A stretch of DNA of 14,990 nt from the IMG/VR virus record IMGVR_UViG_2695420540_000009, one strand, 5' to 3'. The position numbers and the translations under genes are program-made. The number at the start of each line of letters is the position of its first letter. The stretch's first letter is position 1. Under the pieces are notes generated by a model. The model was not told the DNA's origin. It saw nothing but the letters and a program-made list of their open reading frames with translations, and did not search any database. This document shows, piece after piece, positions 2,201 to 4,038 of the stretch. Origin of the DNA: a virus. Lineage: Duplodnaviria > Heunggongvirae > Uroviricota > Caudoviricetes.

Positions 2201-3844
2201 ATGCTTCCTGTAAATAATCCCCCCCTATCCACTGGAAACGTCTCTTTTTACAGAACTACATCAATCGACAATGTTCACAATAATTATCTCTCCGAATGGG
2301 TTGAATGGACTAAAAACAGCATTTCCGGAGAAAACAGGGAAACTGCTTTTACCCGGCTCCAATTATGTCTGGAGAACAGTGAAACATCGTTGGACTTATC
2401 TTGTTTAGGTCTCAGATCTCTACCACGATTGCCTGACAATCTTGATGAAATTAATGTAAGCAATAACCAACTATCAATGCTCCCCGAGCTACCAAGGGCA
2501 TTGAAAGAGCTGAATGCAAGCAGTAATCAATTATCTGCACTTCCTGAATTACCAGTGTCGCTGGAATATATAAATGTGAGTGATAACCATTTGTTCGCAC
2601 TTCCTGAATTACCTGCGTCACTAGAATATATTAATGTAAGTGACAATCACCTGTCTGTACTTCCGAGGTTACCAATGTCATTGGAATTACTTGATGCAGC
2701 CAGAAATGCTTTGGAAGTAATACCAGATTTTCCAGAAAGAGATGATCATATTATAAGAATATTCTGGCTTAATCAGAACCGGATCACGGCAATTCCGGAA
2801 AGCATACTTGGCCTCAGTTCTGATAGCGTTGTCAATCTTAGAGAAAATCAACTATCTCCCAGAATAATGCAAACTTTGTTACAACAAACCGCCCAACCGG
2901 ACTACCACGGCCCACGGATTTACTTCTCCATGAGTGACGGACAACAGAATACACTCCATCGCCCCCTGGCTGATGCCGTGACAGCATGGTTCCCGGAAAA
3001 CAAACAATCTGATGTATCACAGATATGGCATGCTTTTGAACATGAAGAGCACGCCAACACCTTTTCCGCGTTCCTTGACCGCCTTTCCGATACCGTCTCT
3101 GCACGCAATACCTCCGGATTCCGTGAACAGGTCGCTGCATGGCTGGAAAAACTCAGTGCCTCTGCGGAGCTTCGACAGCAGTCTTTCGCTGTTGCTGCTG
3201 ATGCCACTGAGAGCTGTGAGGACCGTGTCGCGCTCACATGGAACAATCTCCGGAAAACCCTCCTGGTCCATCAGGCATCTGAAGGCCTTTTCGATAATGA
3301 TACCGGCGCTCTGCTCTCCCTGGGCAGGGAAATGTTCCGCCTCGAAATTCTGGAGGACATTGCCCGGGATAAAGTCAGAACTCTCCATTTTGTGGATGAG
3401 ATAGAAGTCTACCTGGCCTTCCAGACCATGCTCGCAGAGAAACTTCAGCTCTCCACTGCCGTGAAGGAAATGCGTTTCTATGGCGTGTCGGGAGTGACAG
3501 CAAATGACCTCCGCACTGCCGAAGCCATGGTCAGAAGCCGTGAAGAGAATGAATTTACGGACTGGTTCTCCCTCTGGGGACCATGGCATGCTGTACTGAA
3601 GCGTACGGAAGCTGACCGCTGGGCGCTGGCAGAAGAGCAGAAATATGAGATGCTGGAGAATGAGTACCCTCAGAGGGTGGCTGACCGGCTGAAAGCATCA
3701 GGTCTGAGCGGTGATGCGGATGCGGAGAGGGAAGCCGGTGCACAGGTGATGCGTGAGACTGAACAGCAGATTTACCGTCAGCTGACTGACGAGGTACTGG
3801 CCCTGCGATTGTCTGAAAACGGCTCACAACTGCACCATTCATAA
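2201..3844 (+). CDS. ipaH: IpaH-family type III secreted E3 ubiquitin ligase (N-terminal leucine-rich-repeat domain plus C-terminal NEL domain)
   Basis: ORF track 2201..3844 (+), 547 aa. GAGG lies 6 nt before the ATG. The N-terminal half holds 20-residue LRR units (LxxLPxLPxxLxxLxxSxNxL). The C-terminal half matches the conserved IpaH NEL domain as I recall it (PDYHGPRIYFSMSDGQQN ... ESCEDRVALTWNNLRK with the catalytic Cys ... LRLSENGSQLHHS). The exact paralogue cannot be assigned without a search. Confidence 0.95.
   Translation: MLPVNNPPLSTGNVSFYRTTSIDNVHNNYLSEWVEWTKNSISGENRETAFTRLQLCLENSETSLDLSCLGLRSLPRLPDNLDEINVSNNQLSMLPELPRALKELNASSNQLSALPELPVSLEYINVSDNHLFALPELPASLEYINVSDNHLSVLPRLPMSLELLDAARNALEVIPDFPERDDHIIRIFWLNQNRITAIPESILGLSSDSVVNLRENQLSPRIMQTLLQQTAQPDYHGPRIYFSMSDGQQNTLHRPLADAVTAWFPENKQSDVSQIWHAFEHEEHANTFSAFLDRLSDTVSARNTSGFREQVAAWLEKLSASAELRQQSFAVAADATESCEDRVALTWNNLRKTLLVHQASEGLFDNDTGALLSLGREMFRLEILEDIARDKVRTLHFVDEIEVYLAFQTMLAEKLQLSTAVKEMRFYGVSGVTANDLRTAEAMVRSREENEFTDWFSLWGPWHAVLKRTEADRWALAEEQKYEMLENEYPQRVADRLKASGLSGDADAEREAGAQVMRETEQQIYRQLTDEVLALRLSENGSQLHHS
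2537..2656 (+). repeat. two tandem 60-bp LRR-coding units inside ipaH (near-identical direct repeats)
   Basis: 2537..2596 and 2597..2656 are clearly similar 60-mers encoding ALPELPVSLEYINVSDNHLF and ALPELPASLEYINVSDNHLS; the flanking units are more diverged. Confidence 0.7.
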
Positions 3845-3851
3845 TCACATN

Positions 3852-4038
3852 GTTTTCAGACAACCAGTGCGTCACCTTTTTGAAGGCGCTTTAAAGCACG
3901 TTTTAATCCAGGTCGGCCTGTCCTTGTTCCGCTTAATTTATCTTCAAATATTTGTTCATATCCTGCACAAACAAGAGCGTTTCGTTGCAGGTCTGTATTC
4001 TGGTCATTTGTTGATACCCTTACATAGCCAATCAGCAC
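3852..4038 (-). pseudogene. pin: Pin/Gin/Hin-type serine DNA invertase, 5' ~61 codons only; in-frame TGA at 3856..3858 and an abrupt junction with ipaH-derived sequence at N 3851
   Basis: ORF 3856..4062 (-). Translation VLIGYVRVSTNDQNTDLQRNALVCAGYEQIFEDKLSGTRTGRPGLKRALKRLQKGDALVV matches the N-terminal catalytic domain of Gin/Pin invertases as I recall them (catalytic Ser in VRVST). Probable GTG start at 4038 preceded by GGGAGA. The frame stops where the conserved W of the LVVWKLDRLGR motif is expected (TGG -> TGA), and the C-terminal HTH domain is absent from the window. Confidence 0.8.

What the first reader, a model, noticed from the sequence alone, without database searches (positions are those of the whole stretch)
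3809..3863. Perfect 12-bp inverted repeat spanning the ipaH / pin junction, with an N exactly at the join
TTGTCTGAAAAC (3809..3820, within the last ipaH codons) and its reverse complement GTTTTCAGACAA (3852..3863, the last pin-derived bases, containing the premature TGA) flank a 31-nt spacer that includes the ipaH stop and the single N at 3851. A 12-bp inverted match at this spacing is very unlikely by chance. It is either the scar of the recombination that joined the ipaH module to the prophage, or an assembly join artefact in which the contig end acquired the ipaH version of the 12-mer. An intact pin would be expected to read TGG rather than TGA here.
Basis: seen in the sequence. Interest (0 to 1): 0.4.

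Follow-up and report, generated by a model that had tools for sequence, protein, structure and literature searches.

The report
Scaffold mis-join, not a recombination scar
The 12-bp inverted repeat is really in the text, but its two halves belong to two chromosomal loci that lie about 300 kb apart in finished Shigella genomes and were stitched together at the N by a draft assembly, so it is an assembly artefact and not biology.

Summary
In detail: TTGTCTGAAAAC (3809-3820) and its reverse complement (3852-3863) flank a 31-nt spacer that ends in the single N at 3851.

The adjacency is not real. The window is a scaffold of seven contigs separated by N runs. Bases 1-133 and 3852-8571 are one locus, a prophage remnant next to trpA. 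The 3.7-kb ipaH-island contig (175-3850) has been dropped into a gap of that locus. The gap corresponds to a 1-kb tail-fibre-assembly and methyltransferase repeat that both loci share.

- In two finished chromosomes the two loci lie about 295 kb apart.
- In 10 of 10 sampled chromosomes with the identical IpaH, the 3' flank continues ATCACAT|CGCATAAACC.
- In 32 of 32 occurrences, the invertase pseudogene continues leftward as CAGTCAGTCCA|GTTTTCAGACAA.
- The window's only copy of the shared repeat mixes alleles of both loci.
- An independent draft breaks at the same base but runs through the repeat into pin.
- No public record carries the junction.

Each arm is native to its own gene. The TGA in the pin arm is an old, widespread pseudogene mutation and was not copied from ipaH.

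One thing stays unexplained: the right contig starts exactly at the 12-mer.

Verdict: not a real feature. Interest is very low.

The parts
1..133 (.). Contig from locus B, the prophage remnant next to trpA (part of a tail-fibre assembly gene)
   Evidence: 100% identical to L013 5660-5792 and only 91.7% to the paralogous stretch of the ipaH locus
134..174 (.). 41-N scaffold gap
175..3850 (+). Contig A from the ipaH island: IS110-family transposase fragment, tail-fibre assembly gene, methyltransferase, ipaH
   Evidence: 99.92% to L002 3975-7650 and to nine other finished Shigella chromosomes. The match stops at 3850. Its left end lies inside the transposase gene at L002 3437-4564.
913..1925 (.). 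1,013-bp repeat shared by loci A and B (tail-fibre assembly gene plus class I methyltransferase). It is assembled only once in the window and is mosaic.
   Evidence: 98.3% to L013 5656-6668. Of 20 diagnostic sites, 17 are A-type and 3 (sites 304, 315, 324) are B-type.
2201..3844 (+). ipaH (547 aa, LRR plus NEL E3 ligase; named IpaHe by RefSeq)
   Evidence: Translation. The exact protein is present in finished Shigella genomes, with Pfam LRR_TTSS and NEL hits. PGAP name.
3809..3820 (+). Left arm TTGTCTGAAAAC, native to the conserved ipaH 3' end (codons L-S-E-N)
   Evidence: Present in the same context in every chromosomal and plasmid ipaH copy examined
3851..3851 (.). Single N: a scaffold join between contig A and the right part of locus B
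   Evidence: Homology to both reference loci stops exactly here. The single N at 11555 also joins non-colinear sequence.
3852..3863 (-). Right arm GTTTTCAGACAA, native to the Gin/Pin-type invertase pseudogene (codons V-V-stop-K)
   Evidence: Identical in E. coli EC958 and in 32 of 32 occurrences in fetched loci, always preceded by CAGTCAGTCCA
3856..4038 (-). 5' 60 codons of the invertase pseudogene, ending at the premature TGA
   Evidence: Translation. The 60-aa product has a Resolvase Pfam hit and is found in 7,443 collection blocks. 96% nucleotide identity to phage Mu gin.
3852..8571 (.). Contig from locus B: invertase pseudogene, invertible tail-fibre segment, tail-fibre gene
   Evidence: 99.92% colinear with L013 6823-11542

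Best explanation
The ipaH/pin junction is a scaffolding mis-join caused by a collapsed repeat. The source genome, a Shigella close to S. sonnei-type chromosomes, has two prophage-derived loci. Both contain a roughly 1-kb repeat of a tail-fibre assembly gene plus a methyltransferase (98% identical). In locus A the repeat is followed by ipaH. In locus B, next to trpA, it is followed by a Gin/Pin-type invertase pseudogene and an invertible tail-fibre segment. The draft assembly produced only one, mosaic, copy of the repeat, attached to ipaH. The scaffolder then placed that contig in the hole left in locus B and put a single N where it abuts the next locus-B contig. This brought two sequences 31 nt apart: a 12-mer native to the ipaH 3' end, and its reverse complement native to the pin pseudogene. 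Shown: the anatomy of the scaffold, the native context of each arm, the mosaic repeat, and the absence of the junction elsewhere. Inferred: the behaviour of the assembler and scaffolder, and that the single N marks a predicted overlap that was not found.
For: 1. The window has six N runs (41, 1, 10, 110, 1 and 1 bases), giving seven contigs.
2. Bases 1-133 equal L013 5660-5792 (100%). Bases 175-3850 equal L002 3975-7650 (99.92%). Bases 3852-8571 equal L013 6823-11542 (99.92%). So contig A sits inside a gap of locus B, and the gap (L013 5793-6822) covers most of the shared repeat (L013 5656-6668) plus 154 bp of locus-B sequence.
3. In CP032523.1 the two loci are at 4.567 and 4.272 Mb. In HE616528.1 they are at 2.373 and 2.077 Mb. 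That is about 295 kb apart in both.
4. In 10 of 10 finished loci with the identical IpaH, the flank continues ATCACAT|CGCATAAACCACAG. Plasmid paralogues also continue CGCATAA.
5. In 32 of 32 occurrences, the pin arm is preceded by CAGTCAGTCCA, and the pseudogene continues in frame as KLD*LGHCMRHLVVLVVEA.
6. Every context shown for the 60-aa pin remnant, the 177-aa tail-fibre assembly protein and the 203-aa tail-fibre ORF has the methyltransferase module on that side of pin, never ipaH.
7. The window's repeat copy is A-type at 17 diagnostic sites and B-type at 3. Those 3 sites are the only mismatches of contig A to L002.
8. The independent draft FUDI01000087.1 (L044) has a contig that starts after a single N at the same base as window 175. 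It switches from A-type to B-type inside the repeat and runs into pin. Its other single N is a fold-back join inside the pin remnant.
9. The single N at 11555 joins flanks that map to L007 11235 and 10009, which is not colinear.
10. No record spans the junction: 0 of 5,426 complete E. coli genomes, including 10 ipaH-positive ones, cover both sides; no phage record does; and there are no pattern hits in the genome, viral or metagenome collections, even allowing 0-30 bases at the join.
Against: No reads or assembly metadata were available, and the source record was not identified, so the join is judged by comparison only. This isolate could in principle differ from all sampled relatives. Neither contig end at 3850/3852 coincides with a natural repeat boundary: the ipaH paralogues stay identical for at least 7 more bases, and about 42 nt of unique locus-B sequence are missing before 3852. 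The right contig begins exactly with the 12-mer whose complement lies 30 nt from the end of the left contig. Under independent contig ends this is a coincidence of about 5e-5. None of the other five joins shows it, and I could not tie it to a specific assembler step.
Confidence: 0.93

Rival explanations
1. The junction is real in this isolate. An illegitimate rearrangement fused the 3' end of the ipaH island to the invertase pseudogene of the trpA-side prophage, and the N is merely a miscalled base.
For: The terminal position of the 12-mer at the join is very unlikely by chance. Shigella genomes rearrange frequently, according to the title and abstract of PMC8072062 listed.
Against: It needs two simultaneous novel junctions, because the left end of contig A is also joined (through 41 Ns) to locus-B sequence in the middle of the paralogous repeat, so the tail-fibre assembly fragment appears twice. 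An inverted 12-mer offset by 30 nt from the breakpoint is not the direct microhomology expected at an illegitimate junction. Recombination within the shared repeat cannot produce an ipaH-pin junction. The junction is absent from every other record. Other single-N joins in this window and in a sister draft are demonstrably artefactual.
Confidence: 0.03
2. The two arms are quasi crossover half-sites of a Gin/Pin-type invertase, and the junction was made by invertase-mediated recombination at secondary sites.
For: TTGTCTGAAAAC matches the true half-site TTATCTAAAACC of the neighbouring invertible segment at 9 of 12 positions, in register. My own calculation puts this at about 0.002 for a random 12-mer against the four half-sites.
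Against: Invertase sites are two 12-bp half-sites separated by a 2-bp core, as in the true sites at 4093-4118 and 7012-7037. Here the spacer is 31 nt. In their native contexts, neither 12-mer has a recognisable partner half-site 2 bp away. A crossover at such sites would leave a 2-bp spacer, not the intact 30-nt ipaH tail. The adjacent invertase is a pseudogene. The adjacency itself is artefactual.
Confidence: 0.01
3. The contig end 'acquired' the ipaH version of the 12-mer during assembly (TGG changed to TGA).
For: Intact invertases read TGG at this codon.
Against: The TGA version is the native allele in E. coli EC958 and in all 32 occurrences in finished and draft loci, none of them near ipaH. 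The 60-aa product ending at this TGA is on record in 7,443 collection blocks.
Confidence: 0.01
4. The hairpin is a functional element, such as a transcription terminator or RNA structure for ipaH.
For: As written, with the N replaced by A, the stretch folds into the 12-bp stem: -21.7 kcal/mol, z = -2.7.
Against: The two arms are not adjacent in real genomes. The loop is 31 nt, there is no T tract after the stem, and the scan finds no terminator-like site. The true ipaH 3' flank, absent from the window, has its own strong GC-rich hairpin (-33.8 kcal/mol, z = -3.8).
Confidence: 0.005

Closest known systems
Collapsed-repeat mis-scaffolding in short-read draft assemblies, with a single N as a join marker
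   Same: The breakpoint is exactly at an N. The flanks come from distant loci. A shared 1-kb repeat at 98% identity is assembled once, as a mosaic. Neighbouring joins are also non-colinear, and a sister draft shows alternative mis-joins at the same repeat. From my own knowledge, not tested here: scaffolders such as SSPACE and ABySS insert a single n when contigs are predicted to overlap but no overlap is found, and gap-fillers can leave one N.
   Different: The right contig starts exactly at a 12-mer that is complementary to a site 30 nt inside the left contig. That is not a usual signature of such joins, and I could not explain it.
Gin/Pin/Hin/Cin DNA-invertase crossover sites (gix, pix, hix, cix)
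   Same: The right arm lies in a Gin/Pin-type invertase gene fragment that is 96% identical to Mu gin. The 12-mer resembles a half-site at 9 of 12 positions. True 26-bp sites flank an invertible tail-fibre segment 240 bp away.
   Different: The spacer is 31 nt rather than 2 bp. There is no partner half-site in the native contexts. The arm lies in codons 58-62 of the invertase, not at a segment boundary.
Chromosomal ipaH genes in prophage remnants
   Same: This ipaH sits downstream of prophage tail-fibre-assembly and methyltransferase genes and next to tail-fibre genes in finished genomes. [quoted passage not shown]
   Different: The true 3' neighbour is a DUF4376 tail-fibre gene reached through CGCATAAACC..., not the invertase pseudogene shown in the window.

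Membership tests
Assembly or scaffolding artefact (collapsed-repeat mis-join) | The breakpoint coincides with an N or gap character | tested here: met
   Homology to both parental loci stops at 3850 and 3852, with the N at 3851
Assembly or scaffolding artefact (collapsed-repeat mis-join) | In closed genomes of close relatives, each flank continues differently and the flanks map to distant loci | tested here: met
   10 of 10 ipaH loci and 32 of 32 pin occurrences continue differently. The loci are about 295 kb apart in CP032523.1 and HE616528.1.
Assembly or scaffolding artefact (collapsed-repeat mis-join) | A repeat shared by the two loci accounts for the misplacement and is under-represented or mosaic in the assembly | tested here: met
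   A 1,013-bp repeat at 98.3% identity. There is one full copy in the window, with 17 A-type and 3 B-type diagnostic sites. The gap in locus B covers most of the repeat.
Assembly or scaffolding artefact (collapsed-repeat mis-join) | No reads or read pairs support the junction | not testable with these tools
   No reads or assembly metadata were available, and the source record was not identified
Serine DNA-invertase crossover site (gix/pix/hix/cix) | Two 12-bp inverted half-sites separated by a 2-bp core (26 bp in all) | tested here: not met
   The spacer is 31 nt. The native contexts lack a partner half-site. The true sites at 4093-4118 and 7012-7037 do have this form.
Serine DNA-invertase crossover site (gix/pix/hix/cix) | Half-site sequence similar to functional sites of the same system | tested here: inconclusive
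   9 of 12 identical to TTATCTAAAACC, in register. This is suggestive but compatible with chance and with coding constraint.
Serine DNA-invertase crossover site (gix/pix/hix/cix) | Located at the boundary of a segment found in both orientations | tested here: not met
   The segment that differs in orientation between genomes is about 4093-7037, not anything bounded by the 12-mers
Microhomology-mediated or illegitimate recombination scar | Short direct homology shared by both parents exactly at the breakpoint | tested here: not met
   The longest direct match across the join is 5 nt and is not at the breakpoint. The 12-mer is inverted and offset 30 nt on the left side.
Intrinsic terminator | GC-rich stem, short loop, T tract immediately 3' | tested here: not met
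   No terminator-like site in 3700-4000. The loop is 31 nt.
IpaH (LRR plus NEL E3 ubiquitin ligase) - left gene | N-terminal LRR domain plus C-terminal NEL domain, full length | tested here: met
   547-aa ORF. The identical protein in finished Shigella has Pfam LRR_TTSS and NEL hits. RefSeq names the 99.4-99.7% identical E. coli gene IpaHe.
Gin/Pin serine invertase - right gene | Full-length resolvase catalytic domain plus C-terminal HTH | tested here: not met
   Only the first 60 codons are intact (Resolvase Pfam hit). There is a TGA at codon 61 and a second stop 4 codons later, followed by a degenerate remainder. The intact homologue is 195 aa.

The most novel reading that the evidence does not exclude
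The junction is genuine in this one isolate. A rearrangement associated with the inverted 12-mers, or with invertase half-site-like sequences, moved an ipaH effector cassette next to the invertase and invertible tail-fibre module of another prophage remnant, and the N is a base-calling ambiguity caused by the hairpin.
Probability: 0.03. Interest if true: 0.3.

Novelty: not a real feature. Interest (0 to 1): 0.04.

Why it matters
It matters only as quality control. Taken at face value, the junction would suggest that an ipaH effector module was recombined into a phage invertase gene, and that pin is truncated at a hairpin. Neither is true. It also shows that single Ns in this scaffold are contig joins rather than ambiguous bases. 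Gene order across them (3851, 11555, and the pile of tail-gene fragments from 8582 onward) should therefore not be interpreted biologically.

Tried and rejected
1. Natural repeat boundary of the multi-copy ipaH 3' region at 3850: rejected. All paralogues examined stay identical for at least 7 more bases.
2. Repeat boundary at the start of the right contig: rejected. The repeated tail-fibre-assembly fragment ends at L013 6780, which leaves about 42 nt of unique sequence missing before 6823.
3. Fixed k-mer overlap signature at contig ends: rejected. The terminal strings shared with other contigs vary from 12 to over 199 nt.
4. Ancient shared ancestry between the ipaH 3' region and pin: rejected. 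There is no similarity beyond chance-level short words.
5. Invertase quasi-site recombination: rejected on geometry.
6. An IS insertion at 3851/3852 in this strain as the cause of the contig break: could not be tested. None of the 32 related occurrences has one.
7. Finding the source record or another carrier of the junction: nothing found with two genome-collection scans, one metagenome scan, one viral scan, and BLAST against E. coli genomes and phages.
8. Context look-ups with three locus-B proteins: none found an ipaH neighbour.

Full report
OBSERVATION. TTGTCTGAAAAC (3809-3820) and its exact reverse complement GTTTTCAGACAA (3852-3863) are separated by 31 nt. The spacer contains the ipaH stop codon and a single N at 3851. 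The left arm lies in the last codons of a 547-aa IpaH (…ALRLSENGSQLHHS*). The right arm, read on the minus strand, is …LVV*K of a Gin/Pin-type invertase fragment. A perfect 12-bp inverted repeat with a spacer of 60 nt or less appears in only 3.3% of shuffled windows.

THE WINDOW IS A SCAFFOLD. It contains six N runs (41, 1, 10, 110, 1 and 1 bases) that separate seven contigs, one of them only 66 nt long. Most contig ends lie in strings shared with other tail-gene paralogues in the window. The single N at 11555 joins flanks that map to positions 11235 and 10009 of one reference J gene, so it is not colinear. The contig that ends at 10281 and the one that starts at 10459 carry the same 44 nt. 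Single Ns in this scaffold are therefore contig joins, not ambiguous bases.

WHERE EACH SIDE BELONGS. The identical IpaH protein is encoded in many closed Shigella chromosomes. Window 175-3850 matches ten of them at 99.7-99.9%, and the match stops at 3850. In all ten, the sequence continues ATCACAT|CGCATAAACCACAG… toward a DUF4376 tail-fibre gene. Plasmid ipaH paralogues also continue CGCATAA.

To the right of the N, homology to E. coli and Shigella loci and to phage Mu gin begins exactly at 3852. Window 3852-8571 is 99.9% colinear with a prophage remnant next to trpA (L013 6823-11542). Window 1-133 is 100% identical to the same locus (L013 5660-5792). The scaffold therefore reads locus B, 41 Ns, locus A contig, one N, locus B.

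In CP032523.1 and in HE616528.1 the two loci are about 295 kb apart.

WHY THE CONTIG WAS MISPLACED. Both loci carry a 1,013-bp repeat at 98.3% identity, made up of a tail-fibre assembly gene and a class I methyltransferase. The hole in locus B (L013 5793-6822) covers most of that repeat (L013 5656-6668) plus 154 bp of locus-B sequence. The window contains only one full copy of the repeat, and it is mosaic: 17 diagnostic sites are A-type and 3 are B-type. Those three are the only mismatches of contig A to the finished A locus.

An independent draft, FUDI01000087.1 (L044), has a contig that starts after a single N at the very base where window contig A starts. It switches from A-type to B-type inside the repeat and then runs on into the pin pseudogene. 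Its second single N is a fold-back join inside the pin remnant. This is the behaviour expected of a collapsed repeat in a short-read assembly.

THE ARMS ARE EACH NATIVE. The left arm is part of the conserved 3' end of every ipaH copy examined. The right arm, including the TGA, is the native allele of this invertase pseudogene in E. coli ST131 and in all 32 occurrences in the fetched loci. It is always preceded by CAGTCAGTCCA. The 60-aa product that ends at this TGA is on record in 7,443 collection blocks.

Intact homologues read TGG (TTGTCTGGAAAC). The pseudogene continues in frame past the arm as KLD*LGHCMRHLVVLVVEA, which corresponds to Pin KLDRLGRSMKHLISLVGEL. So pin is not truncated at 3852, and the contig end did not acquire the ipaH 12-mer.

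THE JUNCTION OCCURS NOWHERE ELSE. None of 5,426 complete E. coli genomes, ten of them ipaH-positive, covers both sides. No phage record does either. Pattern scans of the genome, viral and metagenome collections found nothing, even allowing 0-30 bases at the join. Thirty contexts retrieved with three locus-B proteins never show ipaH as a neighbour.

RIVALS.
- A real rearrangement would need two novel junctions at once and has no direct microhomology at the breakpoint.
- Invertase quasi-site recombination is attractive because the 12-mer is 9 of 12 identical to the true half-site TTATCTAAAACC. However, real sites have a 2-bp core, as at 4093-4118 and 7012-7037. The native contexts have no partner half-site, and a crossover would not leave the 30-nt ipaH tail intact.
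- A functional hairpin is excluded because the arms are not adjacent in real genomes and the stretch has no terminator features. The true ipaH 3' flank has its own strong hairpin.

RESIDUAL PUZZLE. Neither 3850 nor 3852 is a natural repeat boundary. The right contig also begins exactly at the 12-mer, which is a coincidence of about 5e-5 if the contig ends are independent. The other five joins do not show this. I suspect an assembler, scaffolder or gap-filler heuristic but could not identify it. This does not rescue a biological reading, because each arm exists separately in its own locus in every relative examined.

VERDICT. The adjacency is an assembly artefact (confidence 0.93). It is not a real feature, and its interest is very low.

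Noticed in passing
window 4093-7037 (sites 4093-4118 and 7012-7037): An invertible tail-fibre segment of about 2.9 kb is flanked by canonical 26-bp invertase crossover sites (TTATCTAAAACC TC GGTTTACGAGAA and TTCCTGTAAACC GA GGTATTCGATAA). It lies in opposite orientation in L020/L021 compared with the window, L013 and L019. Both orders of the 175-aa and 177-aa assembly genes also occur in E. coli loci. Yet the adjacent invertase is a pseudogene, so inversion must be catalysed in trans by another invertase or must pre-date the TGA.
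   Followed up: partly
window 8582-14990: This stretch is a pile of redundant or paralogous tail-tip (J-like) contigs concatenated with N runs. 10459-11554 and 11556-14990 map to overlapping coordinates of the same reference J gene. 10392-10457 is a 66-nt contig. The contig that ends at 10281 and the one that starts at 10459 share 44 nt. Gene order here should not be trusted.
   Followed up: partly
window 1216, 1227, 1236 (repeat sites 304, 315, 324): Three clustered B-locus alleles sit inside an otherwise A-type copy of the methyltransferase repeat. This is either a collapsed-repeat consensus or a real short gene-conversion tract between the two prophage remnants.
   Followed up: partly
window 175; L044 2682: Two independent draft assemblies start a contig at exactly the same base (TCTTCTATTGTACG…), inside an IS110-family transposase gene (L002 3437-4564). 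This suggests a reproducible repeat boundary there.
   Followed up: no
L044 (FUDI01000087.1) 8854: A single-N fold-back join. About 1.8 kb of the invertible-segment region appears twice in inverted orientation around the N. This is probably a mis-scaffold caused by both orientations of the invertible segment being present in the sequenced culture.
   Followed up: partly
window 3809-3820 / 3852-3863 versus 4093-4104: The finding's 12-mer is 9 of 12 identical, in register, to a true crossover half-site. In pin it encodes the conserved LVVWK motif, so the resemblance is probably coincidental.
   Followed up: partly
L002 7661-7730 (absent from the window): The true 3' flank of this ipaH has a strong GC-rich hairpin (-33.8 kcal/mol, z = -3.8). 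Terminator-like matches were called on the minus strand, so it may terminate the convergent tail-fibre gene as well as ipaH. The window lacks it because contig A ends 6 nt after the stop.
   Followed up: no
window 3852-4050: The invertase pseudogene's first ~200 nt (window 3852-4050) are 96% identical to phage Mu gin and SfMu, and 95% to an intact E. coli prophage invertase. Similarity drops sharply right after the 12-mer plus about 8 nt, so the 3' remainder of the pseudogene is far more decayed than the 5' part.
   Followed up: no
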